From Eledone cirrhosa (lineage: Eukaryota), in NCBI GenBank assembly GCA_964016885.1, contig OZ024740.1, positions 194,618,001 to 194,682,000 on the forward strand: a stretch of DNA of 64,000 bases. Reading direction: 5' to 3'. Positions 11,363 to 61,630 of the stretch are shown here, one piece after another. The position numbers were made by a program, and so were the translations under genes. How positions within the stretch are numbered: the stretch's first letter is position 1; the number at the start of each line of letters is the position of its first letter. The notes under the pieces were generated by a model, which ran no database searches, was not told where the DNA came from, and saw only the letters and a list, made by a program, of their open reading frames with translations.

Positions 11363-11418
<56 letters not shown>

Positions 11419-11420
<2 letters not shown>

Positions 11421-12676
11421 AAAAGAATGAAACGAAATTTCATTTCTCACTCTTATTACGGCTGTTACTTAAATGTAAGTATGTATGTATACGTACATAC
11501 ATATATTTATACAGACGTACAGTAGTATGTATACATATACATACATGCACACATATATATATATGTACGCATGGGTTTACCGAACATTTATTATAATGCT
11601 CGGTTTGTTTGTAGACAAACAGCCCGAATTACGCCGTACAGTGTTCAGGCAAACATCGTCACCTTATTGTTCAACACTGACACAGGAACGATGTACAAAT
11701 GTCAAGCTTATTAGCTATCATCAGCATCGTATACCTTTCTGTCAGATGATTGAACGTCTAAAAGTATATACGAGTACATCGTTCCTGTGTCAGTGTTGAA
11801 CAAAAAGGTGACGAAGGTTGCATGAACACTGTACGGCGTAATTCGTGCTGTTTGTCTACAAACACACCGAGCATTATAATAAATGTTCGGTAAATCCATA
11901 CGTACATATATATATATGTGTGCATGTATGTATATGTATACATACTACTGTACGTCTGTATACATATATGTATGTACGTATACATACTTACATTTAAATA
12001 ACAATCTTACTAAGAGTGAGAAATGAAATTTCGTTTAATTTTTTCCGTTTATCGTTTTCGGTGCACCCGGCCGATTAACCCACTCGATATGCAAATTGGG
12101 CTACTCAGCCGTTAATATGCATATTACGTTCAACAATCTGGCAGGAAGGTATACGTTGCTGACGATAGCTAATAAGTTTGAAACTAGTACAGCGATCCTT
12201 TGTCAGTGTTGAGCAAACGAGCAACGATGGTTGCTAGACACTACGGCTTAATACGGGATGTTTGTTTACAAACACATCGAGCATTATAATAAATGTTTGG
12301 TGAATCCATACGTACATATATATATGTGTGCATGTATGTATATATATATACATACTACTGTACGTCTGTATACATATATGTATGTACGTGTACATACTTA
12401 TATTTAAGTAACAGCCGTATTAAGAGTGGGAAATGAAATTTCGTTTCATTTTTTCCGTTTATCGTTTTCGGTAAACAAACATCCCGTATTAAACAAACGA
12501 GCAACGATGGTTACTAGACACTATGGCTTAATACGGGATGTTTGTTTACAAACACACCGAGCATTATAATAAATGTTCGGTGAATCCATACGTACATATA
12601 TGTATGTGTGCATGTCTGTATATATATATACATACTACTGTACGTCTGTATACATATATGTATCTACGTGTACATA

Positions 12677-12678
<2 letters not shown>
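11419..12678. mobile_element. Family A hammerhead repeat cluster (direct copy, inverted copy, tandem and partial copies) between (TA)n tracts
   Basis: Same ~460-bp unit as at 36444-37120 and 60259-61570. Orientation flips at ~11772. Confidence 0.85.
12154..12194 (+). ncRNA. Type I hammerhead ribozyme (family A)
   Basis: CGTTG-CTGACGA-TAGCTAATAAGTTT-GAAA-CTAG-TA-CAGCG. Stem I CGTTG/CAGCG, palindromic stem III, GUA cleavage triplet. Confidence 0.75.
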
Positions 12679-12723
<45 letters not shown>

Positions 12724-12731
<8 letters not shown>

Positions 12732-13152
12732 AGATCAAAAGATGGTTAAAGGAGTTCCATATATTTTATTATGCGCATTTCAAAAACAAACATCATCATG
12801 CAATAATATTTGTGTTTTCATCAGTTAAAACAGGAGAACATGATATGAAGGCTAAAAAACACTTGTGGATAGTGCAGTTTTAAATCAACATATCATGATA
12901 TGTTGATTTAAAACTGCACTATCCACAAGTGTTTTTTAGCCTTCATATCATGTTCTCCTGTTTTATCAAATGAAAACACAAATATTATTGCATGATGATG
13001 TTTGTTTTTGAAATGCGCATAATAAAATATATGGAACTCCTTTAACCATCTTTTGATCTTATATTATGCATACTCCAGTCCCACAAACTGTAGAGTGCTT
13101 CTTATCCGATATCTGCATTGCTTTATTGTACTACAATAAAACTCACCTCCTA
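12724..13152. mobile_element. Family D: 344-bp near-perfect palindrome (12724-13067) plus short unique tail, flanked by (TA)n
   Basis: Arms are reverse complements about TATCA|TGATA (12895/12896) with no spacer. Confidence 0.85.
12762..12832 (-). ncRNA. Type I hammerhead ribozyme (family D)
   Basis: Reverse complement: TGTTTTAA-CTGATGA-AAACA...TGTTTTT-GAAA-TGCGCA-TA-ATAAAATA. The mirror arm has the core mutated to CAAATGA. Confidence 0.7.
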
Positions 13153-13201: not shown

Positions 13202-13236
13202 CTGAAGATCCGCTAAGGTGAAACAATTGTTCTCGG
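13202..13236 (+). ncRNA. Hammerhead core, 5'-truncated at a (TA)n tract
   Basis: CTGAAGA-TCCGCTAAGGT-GAAA-CAATTG-TT. The 5' strand of stem I is missing. The same GTGAAACAATTGTTCTCGG 3' half recurs at ~58274. Confidence 0.5.
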
Positions 13237-23419: not shown

Positions 23420-24574
23420 ATATATATCATATATATATTATATATTATATATACTATATATATACATATAATGTATATTTTATATATCTATATCATATAT
23501 ATATTATATATAATATATACTGTATATATATATATATACATATAATGTATATTTTATATATATATATATATCATATATATTATATATAATATATACTATA
23601 TATATATATATACGTGTATGTGTGAAGGAACATGTGCTTATGTATATGTATTATATATATATATTATATATATATATATATGTTTTATTAATTTTTTATC
23701 CATAAGTGGTGCATTAACATCAGCTGGCTCTAATCCAAAAATAAAGCAAAGGACATGTTTAGCTAAACTGGAGAATTATTGGATTTTATTTAATATTTAT
23801 CTGAAGTAAAACTGGGATTTGTATGTGTGTTAGCTGAAGTGGAACAATTTATTTTTGTATTATTTAATTCTAATGTTTCACGTATTGCTTTTCCTCTCTG
23901 ATTTATGGCTTATGCACACCGTCAATACTTTCCTTCAATTTCAATGTTTTACTTTGCTATTAAAATTCGTTGCCAAACTTGCTGAAGCACGACTGTGTAA
24001 TTTCTTACTGTGGCAATTGAAGCAGAACTGTGAAATTGGTCGTTGATGTTCTTGGCTTTGTTCTTAATTTTCATCTTCTTCTTTGTCGTCTTCTTTCTCC
24101 ATCTCGTTTTCCTTCTGTTTCTTCATACTAGCTTCTTGTTCTTTAGCTTCACGTCAAGCCGGATGGAGGAAACCTCTGATTATAGAAATTCTATCCATGA
24201 CTATTCCATATTATTTTATCTTGGACTACATTGACCAATGTGTCTTTCCATTGCATGGTAGCTTAACGTGACCAAGTTGATTTGGTTGATATTTCTCACA
24301 GATGAAATAATCAAACAGAGGGTTTCTCCGTGTCTCATCGGTGTGTTATACCCTCCAGGTAACATTCTATTTATTTACTATTTATTTTTTTGCTGGAAAA
24401 TAATCTCCACATGTAAGACGTAAAAGAAGGAGTTGTCGTGGGTTAACCTCCTCTGTTAGTATTTCTCTTATTTTCCAGCCCACACTTCTATAGAACAGAA
24501 TGAAAAGCAGCTTATAAAATCTATCATTCAGTGAATGTTTTTCATACATACTTACACAGATACTCACACACGCA

Positions 24575-24685: not shown

Positions 24686-25025
24686 ATTATTAGAAATGTA
24701 AGCTATCGCCGTATTTTGACTAAAGAAATTAAAGAAATTATTTAGCCTGATAGTGGGATTAAGAACCCTCGGAGAAATGGAAAAAGATGAGTATTGACGT
24801 ACATGGGAGTCGAACCCATATCTTTGTTATCCGGACCAACACATCACGGGTGATGTGTTGGTGTAAATGGTAGCACAGTGGTCCGGATAACCAAATATGT
24901 GGGTTCGACTCCCATGTACGTCAATACTCATCTTTTTCCATTTCTCCGAGGGTTCTTAACCCCACATCAGGCTAAATAATTTCTTTAATTTCTTTAGTCA
25001 AAATATGGCGATAGCTTACATTTCT

Positions 25026-36359: not shown

Positions 36360-36448
<89 letters not shown>

Positions 36449-36546
36449 GAATGAAACGAAATTTCATTTCTCACTCTTAGTACGGCACTTACTTAAATGT
36501 ATGTATGTATACGTACATACATATATGTATACAGACGTACAGTAGC

Positions 36547-36583
<37 letters not shown>

Positions 36584-36732
36584 CAGGCACACATATATAT
36601 ATGTACGTATCAGTTTAGCGAACATTTATTATAATGTTCGCTTTGTTCGTTTGTAAACAAACGGAAAGCCTGATTTAAGCCGTACGGTGTTAAGGCAACC
36701 ACGTCACCTTTTTGTTCAACACTGACACAGGA

Positions 36733-36775
36733 ACGATGTACTAGTTTCAAGCTTGTTAGCTATCGTCAGCACCGT
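36733..36775 (-). ncRNA. Type I hammerhead ribozyme (family A)
   Basis: Reverse complement: ACGGTG-CTGACGA-TAGCTAACAAGCTT-GAAA-CTAG-TA-CATCGT. Confidence 0.8.
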
Positions 36776-36849
36776 ATACCCTTCTGCCAGATGGTTGAAC
36801 GTTCGAAAGTATATACTTTCCTTATGAAAATTAACGGCTGAGCAGCCTA

Positions 36850-36857
36850 ATTTGCAT
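36850..36857 (-). promoter_or_regulatory. Octamer motif ATGCAAAT upstream of the family A hammerhead
   Basis: Perfect ATTTGCAT on + strand, conserved in the family A copies covering this segment (12089, 60674, 61146). Confidence 0.45.
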
Positions 36858-37008
36858 ATCGAGTGAGTTCAGTCGGCCAGGCGCACCGAAAACGATAAAT
36901 GGAATAGAATGAAACGAAATTTCATTTCTCACTCTTAGTACGGCACTTACTTAAATGTAAGTATGTATGTATATGTACATACATATATGTATACAGACGT
37001 ACAGTAGC

Positions 37009-37066
<58 letters not shown>

Positions 37067-37149
37067 GCTACTGTACGTCTGTATACATATATGTATGTAC
37101 GTATACATACATACTTACATTTATATATATATATATATATAAATATATA

Positions 37150-37595
37150 CAATGATATTAAATAAATGGAAACTATATTTATAAAACCATATTTATTTTA
37201 TTATAAATATGTCAAGGGTACCAAGACAACATTGGTACGCTTTCATCAGATAAAATACAAAGTTTGTTTTATAAATAGAGACATACCCATGAAAATCATC
37301 CCTTATCGGTTGGAAATTCACTGGATTATCCAGTGAATTTCCAACCGATAAGGTATAATTTTCATGGGTATGTCTCTATGTATAAAACAAACTTTGTATT
37401 TTATCTGATGAAAGCGTACCAATGTTGTCTTGGTACCCTTGAAATATTTATAATAAAATAAATATGGTTTTATAAATATAGTTTCCATTTATTTAATATC
37501 ATTGAATATTTACTCCAGTAACTGTTGAGTGCTCTAAATCAGTTATAAACATTTATATTTATCGGACTTCCATCAAATTAAATACCCCATCTACT
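37150..37595. mobile_element. Family B: 355-bp palindrome (37150-37504) plus unique tail, flanked by (TA)n
   Basis: Arms reverse-complementary about position 37327. Homologues at 22789 and 52025. Confidence 0.88.
37397..37460 (+). ncRNA. Type I hammerhead ribozyme (family B)
   Basis: TATTTTAT-CTGATGA-AAGCGTACCA ATGTTGTCT TGGTACCCTT-GAAA-TATTTA-TA-ATAAAATA, with an 8-bp stem I. The mirror arm has GAAA mutated to GACA. Confidence 0.8.
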
Positions 37596-39720: not shown

Positions 39721-39775
39721 CATTTACCAGTGGTTTCTTGAAAGCAAACAAAATTTGCTTTCAGTCATCAGAATG
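39721..39775 (-). ncRNA. Type I hammerhead ribozyme
   Basis: Reverse complement: CATT-CTGATGA-CTGAAAGCAAA TTTTG TTTGCTTTCAA-GAAA-CCACTGG-TA-AATG. All three stems pair; GUA triplet. Confidence 0.85.
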
Positions 39776-41051: not shown

Positions 41052-41119
41052 CCTCATTACCAGCGGTTTCCCGAATAAGACGAATACAAGAAACGTCCTT
41101 ATTCGTTCGTCAGACAAGG
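41052..41119 (-). ncRNA. Type I hammerhead ribozyme, probably in the 3' pLTR region of the Penelope remnant
   Basis: Reverse complement: CCTTGT-CTGACGA-ACGAATAAGGACG...CGTCTTATTCGG-GAAA-CCGCTGG-TA-ATGAGG. All stems pair. Confidence 0.85.
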
Positions 41120-51160: not shown

Positions 51161-51830
<670 letters not shown>

Positions 51831-52024: not shown

Positions 52025-52330
52025 CAATATATTAATAAGTGGAAACTATATTTATAAAACCATAATTATTTTATTATATATATTTCAAGGGCAACCAAGG
52101 CAGTTTTGATGCGCTTTCATCAGATAAAATACAAAATTTGTTTCATGAAAGCGCACCAAAACTGCCTTGGTTGCCCTTGAAATATATATAATAAAATAAT
52201 GATGGTTTTATAAATATAGTTTCCATTTATTAATATATTGAATATTTACTCCAGTTACTGTTGAGTGCTTTATATCAGTTATAAAACTTTTAAGCTTGTT
52301 GAATCCCAACAAATTTAACATAACTTCTGC
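52025..52330. mobile_element. Family B hammerhead element, shorter palindrome; ribozyme on - strand at 52067-52131
   Basis: Reverse complement: TATTTTAT-CTGATGA-AAGCGCATCAAAACTGCCTTGGTTGCCCTT-GAAA-TATATA-TA-ATAAAATA. Same tail as 37505-37595. Confidence 0.8.
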
Positions 52331-55466: not shown

Positions 55467-55540
55467 CCTTAGACAGCCATGACCTTAGATGTTTCTGCCC
55501 TAGTAGACCTATAAGAGGTAGACCCCCCACCATAACCTCA

Positions 55541-56992
55541 ATGGCTAAAAAGACTCCCATAGGAAGGTGGATTGGGTGGACCAAAGCCATACGGACCCCC
55601 CAAAACACTGATCAGGTAAGAAAAATGGTCGCACATGCAATAGGGGCTAGTATCAAAACTACCCTAAAGGACCACATATTTAAGTTCAATGAGAAAATCT
55701 ACACCCAAAATGAGGGAGCAGCCATCGGCGTCAGCATAGCTGGTGATGTTGCCAACCTTTTCATGGTATGGTGGGAAAGGAGACTTAAAGATCTCCTTAA
55801 TGAAAGCTCCATAGACCTCATCATGTACTCTCGTTATGTAGACGATATCAATATAGTTATAAGAACACCCCCACTAGAGAGCACTAACAAGTTTGATTTA
55901 GAACGTAGCACGATGGAAAGCATCCAGCAGATAGCTAATTCCATACACCAGAGTATAACTGTAACTATAGACTTCCCTTCCAAACACCCTAACAATAGAC
56001 TACCTGTATTAGACACAGAACTCTGGATTAACACTATAGACGAGAGAGCCCAAATTCTCCACTCACACTATGCTAAACCCATGGCCTCCAAATACCTGAT
56101 ACTCAAAAACTCAGCAATGTCTAGTAGTGCTAAGTTTAATATTCTGATCGCAGATTTGGTACGAGTGATGAAGAATGTGTCCAGCATGTGCGACCCAACA
56201 GAAATGGAAAGACACATCCAACACTTCATCAACCGCATGCAGTTCTCTAGCTACAACCAAAGAGACAGAGTCAGAGTATACGAAGGAGCCATGGAAAAGT
56301 ATAAGACCCTCATAGAACTGGACATGAAAGGAATTTGCCCACTATACAGGAGCAAATCATGGAATAGCTTAGATAGGGCTAGACATAAGATAGGGAAGGC
56401 CACATCATGGTACGACAACCAGAGATATCAGAGTGTCATGTTTGTGGACGCCACCCCTGGAGGGAAATTAGCTAACCAGTGTAGAAAGGCCTTGAGAAAG
56501 ACCCACTTAAAAATAAAGGTGGTAGAAAAGCCAGGAACCACCATAAAATCCCTGATCAGCAAAACCTACCCTTTTAAGAAAACCCACTGTACCAATAGGA
56601 AGTGTATCATATGTAAGGTGAACCCCCGGATAAACTGTAAAACTAGAAACGTAGTCTATAGCATAAGATGTACAGAGGGTACTTGCAGAAACATGACAAC
56701 AACATACATAGGTGAGACAGCTCGTAGCATAGGTGAAAGGATAGACCAACACTGGGGGGAACTAAAAGGACGAAAAAACGGGTCAGTACTATACGAACAT
56801 GCTAGACAACAACATGACGGTAACATAGACAACATAGAAATTAGAATAATATCTAAACATAGGAATGACCCAGCAGATAGGCAAATCAGAGAGGCCAGTG
56901 AAATAGAAATTAGAAGACCAAAGCTAAACAGAAAGAATGAGTGGAACAACAACAACACCCAAACAAACAACAGTGACCTAAGAGAAGTATAA
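55541..56992 (+). CDS. Penelope-like reverse transcriptase (C-terminal half) + Cys-rich linker + GIY-YIG endonuclease
   Basis: FKFNEKIYTQNEGAAIG.S.AG.VANLFM, YSRYVDD, LPVLD, CxxxxCxxC...C linker, NVVYSIRC...YIGETARSIGERIDQH...RQIREA...LN.K.EW. No stops over 483 aa. Confidence 0.92.
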   Translation: MAKKTPIGRWIGWTKAIRTPQNTDQVRKMVAHAIGASIKTTLKDHIFKFNEKIYTQNEGAAIGVSIAGDVANLFMVWWERRLKDLLNESSIDLIMYSRYVDDINIVIRTPPLESTNKFDLERSTMESIQQIANSIHQSITVTIDFPSKHPNNRLPVLDTELWINTIDERAQILHSHYAKPMASKYLILKNSAMSSSAKFNILIADLVRVMKNVSSMCDPTEMERHIQHFINRMQFSSYNQRDRVRVYEGAMEKYKTLIELDMKGICPLYRSKSWNSLDRARHKIGKATSWYDNQRYQSVMFVDATPGGKLANQCRKALRKTHLKIKVVEKPGTTIKSLISKTYPFKKTHCTNRKCIICKVNPRINCKTRNVVYSIRCTEGTCRNMTTTYIGETARSIGERIDQHWGELKGRKNGSVLYEHARQQHDGNIDNIEIRIISKHRNDPADRQIREASEIEIRRPKLNRKNEWNNNNTQTNNSDLREV

Positions 56993-57267
56993 ATAAGTAA
57001 ATAAATAAAATAAAATAAAATAAGATAAATAAATACATACACAAGCACAATAACAACAAGCACATAAACACACACTAGTCACCCAGCAGACACAACACTA
57101 TACACACTAGTCACACAGCAAACATAACACTATACACACACGCAAACGCATGCGCAAAGAAGACAAAATAAAATAAACAAACAAGCAAATAAATAAATAA
57201 AGATATAGACAGACTGAATAAAAAATGGCGTAGACATACAACACAACAGGAGAAAAAAAAATATAAC

Positions 57268-57310
57268 ACCACTGACGATGTTGCAGATGTGCAACGAAAG
57301 ATTTATGTAA
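57268..57310 (+). ncRNA. Hammerhead core in the Penelope 3' region
   Basis: CTGACGA-T-GTTGCA GATG TGCAAC-GAAA-GATTTA. Stem II is perfect; stems I and III are very short. Confidence 0.6.
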
Positions 57311-58462
57311 ATTATGTAAACTATATATATGTGTTTGTGTCTATATTGTATCTGTATTATTTTTGACCGTCGGTCAGTCAATGGCAACATTGAGGACCGA
57401 TTAAGTTAGATCGCAGATATAAAAGACAGCGAGAAGCGAAAACCAACCAAACAGTGAGTGTGTTCTGTTATTAATTCTGGCAATATTACACAAATATGAC
57501 CCTCCCCAAGTATAACAATATTTGTTTCGACACACGATTTCATATAAAAAACCTCGCTAAACTATATATATATATATTATTTATGTTCATACACGAAACA
57601 AAAGCGCTACCTATGGTTTCGAGGCTCATTATTGACCATATCTCGAGGATGTAATAAGGATCAAATTTGAGACCTAGTTTTCAGATGTTTAGACGAGTTT
57701 GAAGATACCTCTAAATATATAGCTCGTTATATTCTTGTTTACAGAAACGTAGTATAACAAAAGTCAATAACTCAAAGATGTATATTTGAAATGGCTACGT
57801 AGGTGTACTCGTGCTTGTGTGTGTGCACTATAGCAAATATATTGTATTATGTAATATAGAGATTTTAATATTTATTAAGCTATGAAGTTGTGTAATATGA
57901 AAGGTATTATGTAAGTGTCGGAAAAGAAACGATATTAAGAAAGTATATAAATCAATATAAAGGTAGTTGAACATCAGATGAATTTGAGTGTCTCCATTAA
58001 CAAGATGTTGGCCTTTCAGATGTAGACATACTCCAAAAGATTTCGTTCTTTGATACCAAATAAATATTGATCGTAGACGACAAACCTTGTAATATTCTAA
58101 ATTTTTCAAAAATATATCTATATTAATATAGAGAGATGGTAAGGAATATATCATGACGCTGAATTAGTTTTGGTAAAAATTGATTTAATATGTCTTAGTA
58201 TAATTCACACTTCGTGAAATAAGTTCCAACTGTGTTCGGATAAATTGTTCCATAATTAAAATAAGTAGTGTGTGTGAAACAATTGTTCTCGGAAATGGGG
58301 AATTAACTGTTATGGAACTATTTCTATATATATATATAATCTGAGTTTTTCGAATATTAATAAAACATTCGATTCGTTTGCAATTTTGCAAACAAGCCTC
58401 AATTTTATAGCCATGTCAGTAGAATGAACACTTTATTCTTGCTCTTGTGTTGACATGCGAAA

Positions 58463-58503
58463 TGCAGACACTAATGTTTCTGGCATCACCCTTCATCAGT
58501 ACA
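58463..58503 (-). ncRNA. Type I hammerhead ribozyme (family F)
   Basis: Reverse complement: TGTA-CTGATGA-AGGGTGATGCCA-GAAA-CATTAGTG-TC-TGCA. GUC triplet. Confidence 0.7.
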
Positions 58504-58571
58504 GCTCACTGTTCACCTGCCAAACTGTCAGAGCTAGTGAAAATATATGCTATTTTCACAAATACACAGTG

Positions 58572-58680
58572 ACTGATCGGCCTGATTTGCATATTAGCAC
58601 ACTGGCTGATCAGTCAGATATGCATATTAGTAGATCCACTGATCAGCCAGATTTGCATATCAGCAGACTGGCCAGTCAGT
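58572..58680 (-). promoter_or_regulatory. Three 33-bp repeats, each carrying an octamer or near-octamer motif
   Basis: CTGATC.G.C.GATTTGCATAT.AG repeated three times (ATTTGCAT, ATATGCAT, ATTTGCAT). Confidence 0.5.
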
Positions 58681-59484
58681 TTCCTGTATACGAGCGATAA
58701 ATGGCCGACTTTGCCAAATTCAAATAAAAAAGAAAATTTCGCTCTACATGGCTGAATACAATAAATATAATCTGAGTTTTTCGAATATTATTCGATTCGT
58801 TTGCAATTATATATATATACACGCACTGAACACATGTAGCCGCATACATATCCATATAAAAATACATACATATATATGTATCGCAAGGACTCTATATCTT
58901 TATGATGTATTGTTTCGCAAGGACTCTATATCTTTATGATGTATTGTTTTTGTTTATGCCACGAAACTACGTAGTCGAGGAATCTAGGAGCAGTTTAGGT
59001 ATGATACATTTTATTACTAATTATATCTAAATGTTTCTTCTCTCTTCATAATGTATTTTTAACTCTGATACTGGTTCAGTCTAGTTCAACCGGATTGGTC
59101 TGTCCCAGTCATTCATTGAGCAACATCGGTGAAGTTGGCACCCTTAACTCACGGTTGGGTGCGGATGCATTCATGTATATGTGTGTGTCCGCATGTATCT
59201 GTGTGTTTCTAAATATATTGTTAATAACTCCCTCTGGTCGAGCAATCTTTGAGGTGTGGGGACTGCTGGAAAGCTTCCATTACTCATACTTCTCGCCCCC
59301 TTCACCACCTCTTCTACGGCTTCGATATAAATACCCCCTCCGCCTCCGTGGTATTTTCTTCGGGGTTATAAGAGGCTTAGCTCTGTTTCTCGACCGTTAT
59401 ATCGCGTGACTATCTCCCCCTCCGCCTTTTGGGATTCTTTCTCACGTCGTGTAGACGCGTTCTTGAGACTAGTAAAATGAGGTA

Positions 59485-59574
59485 TCCTCTTGATAAGTCG
59501 GCAGACCTCGCAAGGACTCTATATCTTTATGATGTATTGTTTTTGTTTATGCCACGAAACTACGTAGTCGAGGA
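59485..59574 (+). ncRNA. Type I hammerhead ribozyme, U3-A8 core variant (family G)
   Basis: TCCTC-TTGATAA-GTCGGCA...TGCCAC-GAAA-CTACGTAG-TC-GAGGA. Palindromic stem III, GUC triplet. Confidence 0.75.
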
Positions 59575-60077
59575 ATCTAGGAGCAGTTTAGGTATGATAC
59601 ATTTTATTACTAATTATACCTAAATGTTTCTTCTCTCTTCATAATGTATTTTTAACTCTGATACTGGTTCAGTCTAGTTCAACCGGATTGGTCTGTCCCA
59701 GTCATTCATTGAGCAACATCGGTGAAGTTGGCACCCTTAACTCACGGTTGGGTGCGGATGCATTCATGTATATGTGTGTGTCCGCATGTATCTGTGTGTT
59801 TCTAAATATATTGTTAATAACTCCCTCTGGTCGAGCAATCTTTGAAGTGTGGGAACTGCTGGAAAGCTTCCATTACTCATACTTCTCGCCTCCTTCACTA
59901 CCTCTTTTACGGCTTCGATATAAATACCCCCTCCGCCTCCGTGGTATTTTCTTCGGGGTTATAAGAGGCTTAGCTCTGTTTCTCGACCGTTATATCGCGT
60001 GACTATCTCCCCCTCCGCCTTTTGGGATTCTTTCTCACGTCGTGTAGACGCGTTCTTGAGACTAGTAAAATGAGGTA

Positions 60078-60167
60078 TCCTCTTGATAAGTCGGCAGACC
60101 TCGCAAGGACTCTATATCTTTATGATGTATTGTTTTTGATTATGCCACGAAACTACGTAGTCGAGGA
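60078..60167 (+). ncRNA. Second copy of the family G U3-A8 hammerhead
   Basis: Same core and stems as 59485-59574. Confidence 0.75.
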
Positions 60168-60258
60168 ATCTAGGAGCAGTTTAGGTATGATACATTTTAT
60201 TACTAATTATACCTAAATGTTTCTTCTCTCTTCATAATATATATATATATATATATAT

Positions 60259-61568
60259 AAATTGAAACAAAATGAAAACGAAATTTCATTTCTCACTCTT
60301 AGTATGGCACTTACTTAAATGTAAGTATGCATGTATACGTACATACATATATGTATACAGACGTACAGTAGCATGCACATATATATATATATATATACAT
60401 ATGCATACAGGTACACATACATATATGCACGTATCAGTTTAGCGGCGCTTATTATAACGTCGCTTTGTTCGTTTGTAAACAAACTGAACAGCCTGAATTT
60501 ATGCCATACGGTGTTAAGGCAACCACGTCACCTTTTTGTTCAACACTGACACAGGAACGATGTACTAGTTTCAAGCTTGTTAGCTATCATCAGCACCGTT
60601 TACCCATCTGCCAGATAGTTGAACGTTCGAAAGTATATACTTTCCTTATGAAAATTAACGGCTGAGCAGCCTAATTTGCATATTGAGTGAGTTAAATCGG
60701 TCAGGCATACCGAAAACGATAAATTGAAACAAAATGAAAACGAAATTTCATTTCTCACTCTTAGTATGGCACTTACTTAAATGTAAGTATGCATGTATAC
60801 GTACATACATATATGTATACAGACGTACAGTAGCATGCACATATATATATATATATACATATATATATACATATGCATACAGGTACACATACATATATGC
60901 ACGTATCAGTTTAGCCGCGCTTATTATAACGTCGCTTTGTTCGTTTGTAAACAAACTGAACAGCCTGAATTTATGCCATACGGTGTTAAGGCAACCACGT
61001 CACCTTTTTGTTCAACACTGACACAGGAACGATGTACTAGTTTCAAGCTTGTTAGCTATCATCAGCACCGTTTACCCATCTGCCAGATAGTTGAACGTTC
61101 GAAAGTATATACTTTCCTTATGAAAATTAACGGCTGAGCAGCCTAATTTGCATATTGAGTGAGTTAAATCGGTCAGGCATACCGAAAACGATAAATTGAA
61201 ACAAAATGAAAACGAAATTTCATTTCTCACTCTTAGTATGGCACTTACTTAAATGTAAGTATGCATAAAGTATGGGTACACGGTGCTGATGATAGCTAAC
61301 AAGCTTGAAACTAGTACATCGTTCCTGTGTCAGTGTTGAACAAAAAGGTGACGTGGTTGCCTTAACACCGTATGGCATAAATTCAGGCTGTTCAGTTTGT
61401 TTACAAACGAACAAAGCGACGTTATAATAAGCGCCGCTAAACTGATACGTGCATATATGTATGTGTACCTGTATGCATATGTATATATATATGTATATAT
61501 ATATATATGTGTGCATGCTACTGTACGTCTGTATACATATATGTATGTACGTATACATGCATACTTAC

Positions 61569-61570
<2 letters not shown>
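60259..61570. mobile_element. Family A hammerhead repeat: two tandem units (462 and 472 bp), a partial third and an inverted copy
   Basis: Unit starts at 60259, 60721 and 61193, with inversion at ~61275. Hammerheads at 60557-60599(-), 61029-61071(-) and 61280-61322(+). Confidence 0.9.
61280..61322 (+). ncRNA. Type I hammerhead ribozyme (family A)
   Basis: ACGGTG-CTGATGA-TAGCT AACA AGCTT-GAAA-CTAG-TA-CATCGT. Identical antisense copies at 60557-60599 and 61029-61071. Confidence 0.85.

Positions 61571-61630
<60 letters not shown>

What the first reader, a model, noticed from the sequence alone, without database searches (positions are those of the whole stretch)
60259..61570. Family A: ~465-bp tandem unit with a minimal hammerhead, present at three loci
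Three independent loci (11419, 36444, 60259) carry the same unit in head-to-tail plus inverted arrangement, and all start at nearly the same position. The ribozyme has a palindromic stem III (ACTAGT) too short to close in a monomer, which fits the dimeric cleavage known for minimal hammerheads. Stem I varies between loci but stays paired (ACGGTG/CATCGT versus CGTTG/CAGCG), suggesting selection on structure. Cleavage at successive units would release a ~470-nt monomer.
Basis: partly seen in the sequence, partly recalled or inferred. Interest (0 to 1): 0.8.

Follow-up and report, generated by a model that had tools for sequence, protein, structure and literature searches.

The report
Ribozyme repeat riding Penelope retrotransposons
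A protein-free repeat of about 420-540 bases with a hammerhead ribozyme motif occurs in over 24,000 copies in this animal genome, and its insertions carry the same two-ended fingerprint as the genome's Penelope-like jumping genes, so those enzymes likely spread it, which bears on the open question of what moves animal 'retrozymes'.

Summary
Window 60257-61573 is one insertion of a non-coding repeat: 2.2 tandem units (462, 472 bp) on the minus strand plus an inverted 302-bp arm, between (TA)n runs, with three intact type I hammerhead cores. The motif has 24,211 exact matches in the 3.0-Gb genome (control 0). The core is more conserved than its flanks (0.99 vs 0.89, copies picked without the ribozyme) and stem I covaries. 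New here: in 40 of 40 classifiable inverted insertions (53 examined) one arm ends near unit position 316 and the other near 257, both in (TA)n. This one-sided 59-nt tail is the Penelope-like element (PLE) signature; an RT+GIY-YIG-coding PLE of this genome shows it too (6 of 6) and has a hammerhead of the same build. Copies read through the cleavage site and do not stop there, so the template is likely a circle or an uncut multimer, not the cut monomer. It is a non-LTR retrozyme-type element likely moved by PLE protein. The kind is known; cleavage, circles and the partner enzyme are untested.

The parts
60238..60256 (.). (TA)n run at the left end of the insertion (likely target)
   Evidence: sequence
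60257..61280 (-). Long-ended arm: unit positions about 230-472, a full unit, then 1-316
60257..60315 (-). 59-nt 'tail' (unit 258-316), present on this arm's end only
60563..61034 (-). One full 472-nt monomer, cleavage site to cleavage site; 36% GC; predicted highly self-paired
60557..60599 (-). Hammerhead 1 (type I; stem I 6 bp, stem II 4 bp on U.U, palindromic stem III); predicted cut between 60563 and 60562
61029..61071 (-). Hammerhead 2; predicted cut between 61035 and 61034
60674..60681 (-). Octamer ATGCAAAT, 88 nt before the catalytic core (second copy 61146-61153); candidate promoter element, untested
   Evidence: 36 of 40 arms intact; 23-nt module shared with another hammerhead family
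60787..60910 (-). Internal TA-rich block, variable in length, predicted long hairpin; accounts for much of the spread in monomer size
61272..61280 (.). Head-to-head junction of the two arms with a 9-nt overlap
61272..61573 (+). Short-ended inverted arm: unit 428-472, then 1-257; holds hammerhead 3 (core 61286-61316)
61574..61627 (.). (TA)n run at the right end
36445..37123 (-). Second insertion: long-ended minus arm (to 37066, hammerhead core 36739-36769) plus a 60-nt inverted plus arm ending at unit 257 (about 37062-37123), between (TA)n runs
11413..12686 (.). Third insertion: long-ended minus arm 11413-11771 with a broken hammerhead (11694-11724), short-ended plus arm 11770-12686 with an intact core (12159-12189); arms only 88% alike, composite

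Best explanation
This is a non-coding retroelement of the non-LTR retrozyme type: tandem 419-538-nt units with one hammerhead each, likely copied into (TA)n microsatellites by the reverse transcriptase-endonuclease of a Penelope-like element, likely from a circular RNA. Steps: (1) an array is transcribed on the ribozyme strand (inferred); (2) two neighbouring hammerheads pair their ACUAGU palindromes, cut after GUA, and the monomer or dimer is ligated into a circle by a host ligase (inferred from PMC7229834); (3) a PLE protein nicks both strands of a (TA)n run and primes two cDNAs, one at unit position 316 and one at 257 (ends shown; enzyme inferred from PMC11167929); (4) each cDNA runs a variable length through cleavage sites, up to 7, and the two are joined head to head, often at short overlaps (shown in the DNA); the result is two diverging arms with a 59-nt tail on one side only.
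For: Copy number 24,211 vs control 0. Conservation and covariation of the ribozyme; a 310-bp sibling family keeps the same build with all four stem II pairs and the stem III palindrome changed. 53 diverging two-arm insertions vs 1 converging neighbour among 150 arms; 40 of 40 classifiable pairs have one long and one short end, 20:20 left/right, exact ends 316 (31 of 40) and 257 (33 of 40); 21 of 21 among pairs picked by the ribozyme alone. Ends run into TA repeats (67 of 75 long, 53 of 55 short). ORF-coding PLEs of the same genome show the same two ends before (TA)n; family 'f' (RVT_1 + GIY-YIG) gives 6 of 6 classifiable pairs long/short (7 examined) and has a hammerhead with the same U.U base and a 6-nt palindrome. 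Two arms of one insertion are nearly always one subfamily (mean 96.8% vs 89.5%, 31 pairs). Read-through of the cleavage site without a pile-up of 5' ends fits a circle. Predicted circular folds keep stems I and II formed, z -4.3 to -11.2, 4 monomers. Literature: tail on one end, inverted 5'-truncated copy and (TA)n targets define PLE insertions (PMC8557442, PMC3846280); the tail lies between two RT start sites and the protein cuts and extends both strands (PMC11167929).
Against: No cleavage, circle, strand or RNA end could be tested. The one run that behaves as RNA (X6) holds the sequence only modestly (72 contigs; summed depth 107-5,392, at most about 1% of the DNA run, against about 11% for an unrelated intronic repeat), which read-through could explain. 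PMC11167929 found hammerhead cleavage dispensable for PLE insertion in vitro and no RNA-seq reads ending at the cut. One array alternates A-B-A-B with 14-16 differences (L038), which a monomer circle cannot make. No sequence shared with any sampled PLE identifies the partner. Stem I covariation is essentially one or two subfamily events (2 of 29 pairs change on both sides; that count is no higher than in shuffles, 473 of 500). The sample is the first 25 Mb of one contig plus the window, and three pairs lie in one duplicated segment.
Confidence: 0.55

Rival explanations
1. Same element and same PLE enzyme, but the template is the uncut multimeric transcript; the hammerhead acts late, rarely, or only with protein help, and no stable circle is involved.
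For: PMC11167929 (unprocessed RNA is the main substrate; ribozyme mutants still insert). A-B-A-B array and non-identical neighbouring units. Low share in the RNA-like run. Weak stem II base (U.U) and 2-nt loop III.
Against: Strong conservation of the catalytic core across subfamilies says cleavage chemistry matters at some step; arrays of up to 7 read-throughs persist although copying linear arrays with a median arm of 407 nt would shorten them; tandem type I repeats of coral, mussel and axolotl do make circles (PMC7229834).
Confidence: 0.3
2. The repeat is just the truncated terminal repeat (pLTR) of an autonomous PLE whose ORF I did not sample.
For: All insertion features are those of PLE ends; the ribozyme build matches PLE family f; only 50 GIY-YIG loci (30 of 150 scored hits plus 20 longer stretches) and 31 PLE C-terminal ends were examined.
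Against: Units join head to tail with no room for an ORF, up to 7 in a row. No PLE 3' region and 77 matches the unit except as nested insertions behind a (TA)n run. The only shared 5' extension was a local duplication with 2 copies genome-wide. Family f shows no such short-period tandems in its first 100 listed hits.
Confidence: 0.08
3. A SINE-like element moved by a LINE, with inversions from twin priming.
For: LINE fragments are common nearby; twin priming gives 5' inversions (recalled).
Against: Twin priming (recalled) gives one 3' end and non-overlapping arms; here both arms have their own fixed 3' end 59 nt apart, cover the same sequence, and lack poly(A).
Confidence: 0.04
4. A DNA-level satellite or MITE spread by recombination or a transposase, with an idle ribozyme-like motif.
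For: Inverted ends and tandem units; A-B-A-B alternation can come from unit-pair duplication.
Against: Fixed unequal 3' ends with scattered 5' breakpoints, strand-asymmetric folding (ribozyme strand more stable in 4 of 4) and selection on the catalytic core point to an RNA step.
Confidence: 0.03

Closest known systems
Metazoan non-LTR retrozymes (Cervera & de la Pena 2020, PMC7229834), especially axolotl Rtz353 with HHR_Amex2
   Same: Short ORF-less tandem repeats, one type I hammerhead per unit, GC under 50%, tens of thousands of copies, highly self-paired predicted circle, weak helix III, and a U.U at the base of helix II as in Amex2.
   Different: Monomers 419-538 nt (reported 150-450 bp repeats, 170-400-nt circles); an internal TA hairpin; (TA)n targeting with diverging arms and a one-sided tail, which the text I read does not describe; a conserved octamer module, whereas PMC7761336 says retrozymes seem to lack promoters; circles not tested here.
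EN+ Penelope-like elements (pLTR, inverted copy, tail; PMC8557442, PMC3846280, PMC11167929)
   Same: Head-to-head inverted arms, tail on one end, scattered 5' truncation, (TA)n targets, hammerhead 250-320 nt upstream of the 3' ends with a small palindromic helix III (PMC4209133).
   Different: No RT or GIY-YIG ORF; tail 59 nt rather than 30-40 (local PLEs range about 40-95); whole units repeat many times.
Non-autonomous Chlamys PLEs such as MRC1 (PMC8557442)
   Same: ORF-less, multicopy head-to-tail insertions attributed to PLE machinery.
   Different: Those share 3' sequence with an autonomous family and belong to a clade mostly without hammerheads; here no parent was found and the hammerhead is the most conserved part.
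Newt satellite 2 (cited in PMC7229834 and PMC2220036)
   Same: Tandem hammerhead repeat that cleaves as a dimer; reported to have an internal snRNA-type promoter, which the octamer here recalls (that such promoters use an octamer is recalled; the 1994 paper was not held).
   Different: The two U2 genes checked here have no octamer within 400 bp upstream, so the promoter parallel is unproven.

Membership tests
Type I hammerhead ribozyme | Core CUGANGA, GAAA, UH with stems I-III in type I order | tested here: met
   35 of 40 unselected arms have an intact 12-nt core.
Type I hammerhead ribozyme | G10.1-C11.1 pair at the base of stem II | tested here: not met
   U.U in all copies; precedent in active axolotl Amex2 (PMC7229834), so this marks a variant, not a dead motif.
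Type I hammerhead ribozyme | Reaches an Rfam hammerhead model's cut-off | tested here: not met
   Best: Hammerhead_HH9 21.2 bits vs cut-off 52, E 0.027; none at gathering level.
Type I hammerhead ribozyme | Self-cleavage (as a dimer) | not testable with these tools
   Only the 6-bp ACUAGU duplex was computed (-6.8 kcal/mol).
Minimal hammerhead (min-HHR, PMC4209133) | No helix III nucleotides; long helix II with an extra 5' base and G-C | tested here: not met
   4-nt palindromic insert CUAG, 4-bp helix II.
Non-LTR retrozyme | Short tandem repeats (150-450 bp) each with a type I hammerhead | tested here: met
   34 full monomers in 14 segments, 419-538 nt, partly above the reported range.
Non-LTR retrozyme | No protein-coding region; GC under 50% | tested here: met
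   GC 32-39%; longest ATG frame 49-114 codons, not kept between subfamilies (5 monomers).
Non-LTR retrozyme | Highly self-paired predicted circle with a free-folding hammerhead | tested here: met
   64-71% paired, z -4.3 to -11.2 (25 shuffles each); part without the TA block z -4.4.
Non-LTR retrozyme | Expressed as linear and circular monomer RNA | tested here: inconclusive
   Contigs only: RNA-like run X6 holds the sequence and crosses the cleavage site, but shows no strand, end or circle.
Non-LTR retrozyme | No PBS or PPT; long target-site duplications when present | not tested
   PBS/PPT not searched; TSDs cannot be read in (TA)n targets.
Autonomous Penelope-like element | Single ORF with RT and GIY-YIG endonuclease | tested here: not met
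   no parent.
Penelope-like insertion (works-like test) | Inverted 5'-truncated copy, one-sided tail, (TA)n targets | tested here: met
   53 diverging pairs, 40 of 40 classifiable long/short, 120 of 130 standard ends in TA repeats.
Non-autonomous PLE (MRC1-like) | 3' sequence similarity to an autonomous family | tested here: inconclusive
   None found in 31 PLE ends and 50 GIY-YIG loci out of 10,595 first-look candidates.

The most novel reading that the evidence does not exclude
An animal retrozyme caught with the fingerprint of its carrier: a PLE protein dimer copies a ribozyme-made RNA circle twice at once from two fixed start sites, one per DNA strand, building every inverted insertion with exactly one tail; the unit carries its own octamer promoter module, making it a self-transcribing, self-circularising parasite of PLEs that borrows only an RNA shape and shares no sequence with its host element.
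Probability: 0.3. Interest if true: 0.72.

Novelty: new member of a known kind. Interest (0 to 1): 0.48.

Why it matters
Papers on animal retrozymes name PLEs as the likely but unproven carriers, resting on shared hammerheads and co-occurrence, and say the repeats show no motif that reveals the carrier (PMC7229834, PMC7761336, PMC11722881). This family shows the PLE insertion signature itself, with base-level predicted start sites (unit 257 and 316), next to ORF-coding PLEs with the same signature. With the published in vitro PLE assay (PMC11167929) this makes two questions directly testable: which enzyme moves retrozymes, and whether the template is a circle. The strict one-long-one-short rule also constrains how PLEs build inverted copies. 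At 24,000+ motif copies (36,770 with sibling families) it is a notable part of this genome.

Tried and rejected
DNA search of the own genome with a 276-nt stretch gave 0 because very common words are skipped; patterns were used instead. Rfam: only a tRNA-like hit at gathering level; the miRNA hits come from the TA hairpin and are far below cut-off. First end classification gave 30 long/short and 11 short/short pairs because local alignments slid into flanking TA runs; requiring matches to specific blocks gave 40 and 0, in line with the BLAST ends. Thirteen pairs stayed unclassified (10 with one non-standard end, 3 with no call). The 60-nt inverted arm at 37062-37123 was missed by the arm filter, so some of the 44 'single' arms may hide short partners. 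Sequencing runs: no RNA holder listed. X4 and X5 (organisms B, C) hold one low-depth monomer contig each but no GAPDH of this genome: likely carry-over, no evidence. A shared 5' extension at L031 looked like a parent element but is a local inverted duplication. PLE fragments beside arrays in L032, L034, L048, L182 are separated by TA runs and are nested insertions. snRNA-type promoter: no octamer upstream of two U2 genes. Metagenome contigs: 0 matches. Earlier findings by sequence and by genome: none. Lunse et al. 2017 and Coats et al. 1994 were not held; the supplement of PMC7229834 could not be read and may list this or related families.

Full report
OBSERVATION. The window lies at G000:C1:194,618,001-194,682,000 of a 3.0-Gb genome rich in (TA)n. 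The organism was not identified. At 60257-61266 a unit repeats 2.2 times (462 and 472 bp), followed by an inverted 302-bp arm (61272-61573), all between TA runs. On the minus strand each unit carries ACGGTG-CTGATGA-T-AGCT-AACA-AGCT-T-GAAA-CTAG-TA-CATCGT, a type I hammerhead layout. Six copies lie in the window, none expected by chance; five have an intact core and the one at 11694-11724 is broken. I number the monomer from the base after the predicted cut (1 = 61034, 472 = 60563).

FAMILY SIZE AND SELECTION. The 31-nt motif has 24,211 exact matches in the genome, its reversed control 0; a flank anchor has 28,145; a relaxed pattern for the same build has 36,770. I merged fetched loci into 82 segments (546,012 bases; first 25 Mb of C1 plus the window) holding 34 full monomers of 419-538 nt in several subfamilies about 77-100% alike. 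To avoid selecting on the ribozyme I took the first 100 flank-anchor hits; 48 run on past position 316, giving 40 arms. Column identity is 0.990 in the 12 core positions, 0.995 in stems II/III and 0.889 in 171 flank positions; frequent polymorphisms 0 of 22 vs 42 of 171 (Fisher p=0.005); 35 of 40 cores intact. The variable hammerhead positions are N7, one loop II base and one stem I pair (U.G 19, G.U 15, A-U 5, U.U 1). On 37 distinct rows 97.0% of cells pair (0 of 500 shuffles as high; slid controls 29-44%), but only 2 of 29 pairs change on both sides, no more than shuffles, so within-family covariation is a few events. Across families it is clearer: a 310-bp tandem family (L034) keeps the U.U, the AAUA loop and a 6-nt palindrome with stem II TTCT/AGAA and ACGCGT. 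Rfam does not call the motif (best HH9 21.2 bits, cut-off 52). Predicted circles are 64-71% paired with stems I and II formed; the ribozyme strand folds better than its complement in 4 of 4.

INSERTION ANATOMY. Of 150 arms, 106 form 53 diverging (5'-to-5') pairs; one converging neighbour was seen. 3' ends cluster at position 316 (50 arms) and 257 (45 arms), and 120 of 130 standard ends run into TA repeats. In 40 of 40 pairs with both ends classified, one arm is long (296-322) and one short (248-268); no long/long or short/short; 20:20 by side; chance under independence 9e-13, though the 40 pairs lie in 34 segments and three share one duplicated segment. Part of the sample was chosen by a tail anchor; among the 28 pairs chosen by the ribozyme alone, 21 of 21 classifiable obey the rule. 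A first, looser rule gave 30 long/short and 11 short/short through alignments sliding into TA runs; I tightened it, and 13 pairs remain unclassified. All three window loci obey the rule (the short arm at 37062-37123 read by eye). Junctions show 1-9-nt overlaps (16), blunt joins (2), extra bases (11) or longer overlaps (11). The two arms are usually one subfamily (96.8% vs 89.5%; 31 pairs). 5' breakpoints are scattered; 92 of 130 arms cross at least one intact cleavage site, up to 7, and stops at the site are 7 vs 4.4 expected. A cut linear monomer is therefore not the main template.

LOCAL PLEs AS CONTROL. The genome holds many GIY-YIG elements (10,595 candidates, 150 scored). PLE families found beside the arrays show two ends before (TA)n, for example 99 vs 193-195 and 62-66 vs 155 nt from the core. 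Family f (L174, RVT_1 + GIY-YIG; 5,901 motif hits) has a hammerhead with U.U at the base of stem II and the palindrome AGTACT; 6 of its 7 diverging pairs are classifiable and all 6 are long/short, about 40-50 nt apart. No sampled PLE shares sequence with family A beyond nested insertions, and the one shared extension was a local duplication.

RNA. No run was on record as RNA. Run X6 (organism A) has a GAPDH contig of depth 18,409 joining three introns with CT..AC ends that DNA run X1 lacks, so it behaves as RNA. It holds 72 contigs on the monomer and one crossing the cleavage site at depth 1,299. Contigs give no strand, end or level, library type is unknown, and the share is lower than for an unrelated intronic repeat. 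This shows presence only.

OCTAMER. ATATGCAAAT is intact in 36 of 40 arms. A 23-nt module around it (19 of 23 identical) recurs in another hammerhead family at window 58400-58760, 93 nt before its core against 88 nt here (0 of 500 shuffles). A promoter role or common ancestry would both explain it; two U2 genes lack the motif.

MECHANISM. Shown: sequence, copy number, selection on the core, fixed unequal ends, TA targets, read-through. Inferred: transcription, dimeric cleavage, circularisation, the PLE enzyme. PMC11167929 (parts 1-2 of 4 read) shows a PLE protein, predicted dimeric, cutting and extending both strands of AT-rich DNA and starting at two internal RNA sites that bound the tail. 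One start per strand followed by head-to-head joining would give the 40 of 40 pattern. I put PLE transport at about 0.9 (including the pLTR rival) and the circle at a little under two to one against the uncut multimer; an A-B-A-B array (L038) needs a dimer template or later duplication.

COMPARISON AND NOVELTY. PMC7229834 (parts 2-4 of 6; supplement unreadable) defines non-LTR retrozymes, includes a U.U variant, and names PLEs as candidate carriers. PMC4209133 (parts 1-2 of 4) describes minimal and palindromic-helix-III hammerheads in PLEs. PMC8557442 and PMC3846280 (passages) describe the inverted copy, one-sided tail, (TA)n bias and non-autonomous multicopy Chlamys elements. PMC6765202, PMC7761336, PMC11722881, PMC2220036 were seen as passages. 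Searches found no paper describing this family or the tail signature on a retrozyme; the library is partial and Lunse et al. 2017 was seen only as a title in reference lists. Earlier scan notes on other genomes report similar PLE-type non-coding insertions, so the pattern is probably widespread. Verdict: a new, large member of a known kind, with unusually clean evidence on its carrier. Interest 0.48.

Noticed in passing
L174:2722-4629(-) and L186, L098, L198-L220: ORF-coding PLE family (RT + GIY-YIG) with a hammerhead of the same build as family A, 5,901 motif hits, long/short diverging arms; best candidate partner by ribozyme build only.
   Followed up: partly
L034:6273-8337: Sibling 310-bp tandem hammerhead family, seven units plus an inverted arm, ends 160 vs 194 nt from the core (34-nt tail), compensatory stems II and III.
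   Followed up: partly
window 58400-58760 (-): Another hammerhead family (core 58467-58499) with three 33-bp octamer-like repeats upstream; shares a 23-nt module with family A; relatives in L151, L180, L183.
   Followed up: partly
window 58915-60237: 593-bp tandem repeat (2.2 units) ending in the (TA)n run into which the finding inserted; no hammerhead found on either strand; the same flank abuts a family A arm at C1:19.62 Mb (97% over 796 nt).
   Followed up: partly
window 55481-57560 (+): 5'-truncated PLE (503 open codons, weak RVT_1 hit) with its own hammerhead near 57270 and a long 3' end before (TA)n.
   Followed up: partly
window 37145-37509, 52075-52123, 12719-13150: Palindromic two-arm insertions of other hammerhead families with long stem II, ends about 100 vs 195 nt from the core; the L049 relative lies in front of a 775-codon PLE ORF.
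   Followed up: partly
window 41058-41113(-), 39725-39771(-), 51577-51604(+), 13203-13235(+): Further hammerhead-like motifs of different families; the window holds at least eight kinds.
   Followed up: no
L038:3054-4768: Array alternates two unit variants (420/422 nt; 14-16 differences between them, 0 between the two 422-nt copies), implying a dimer template or a pairwise duplication.
   Followed up: partly
L048:4290-4345 and relatives: A PLE family with a variant core (CAGAAGA instead of CUGANGA) kept in 11 copies; another (L171/L172) has the same variant with palindrome ACCGGT.
   Followed up: no
window 24852-24923 (+): tRNA-like match (Rfam RF00005, 40.8 bits), possibly a SINE head.
   Followed up: no
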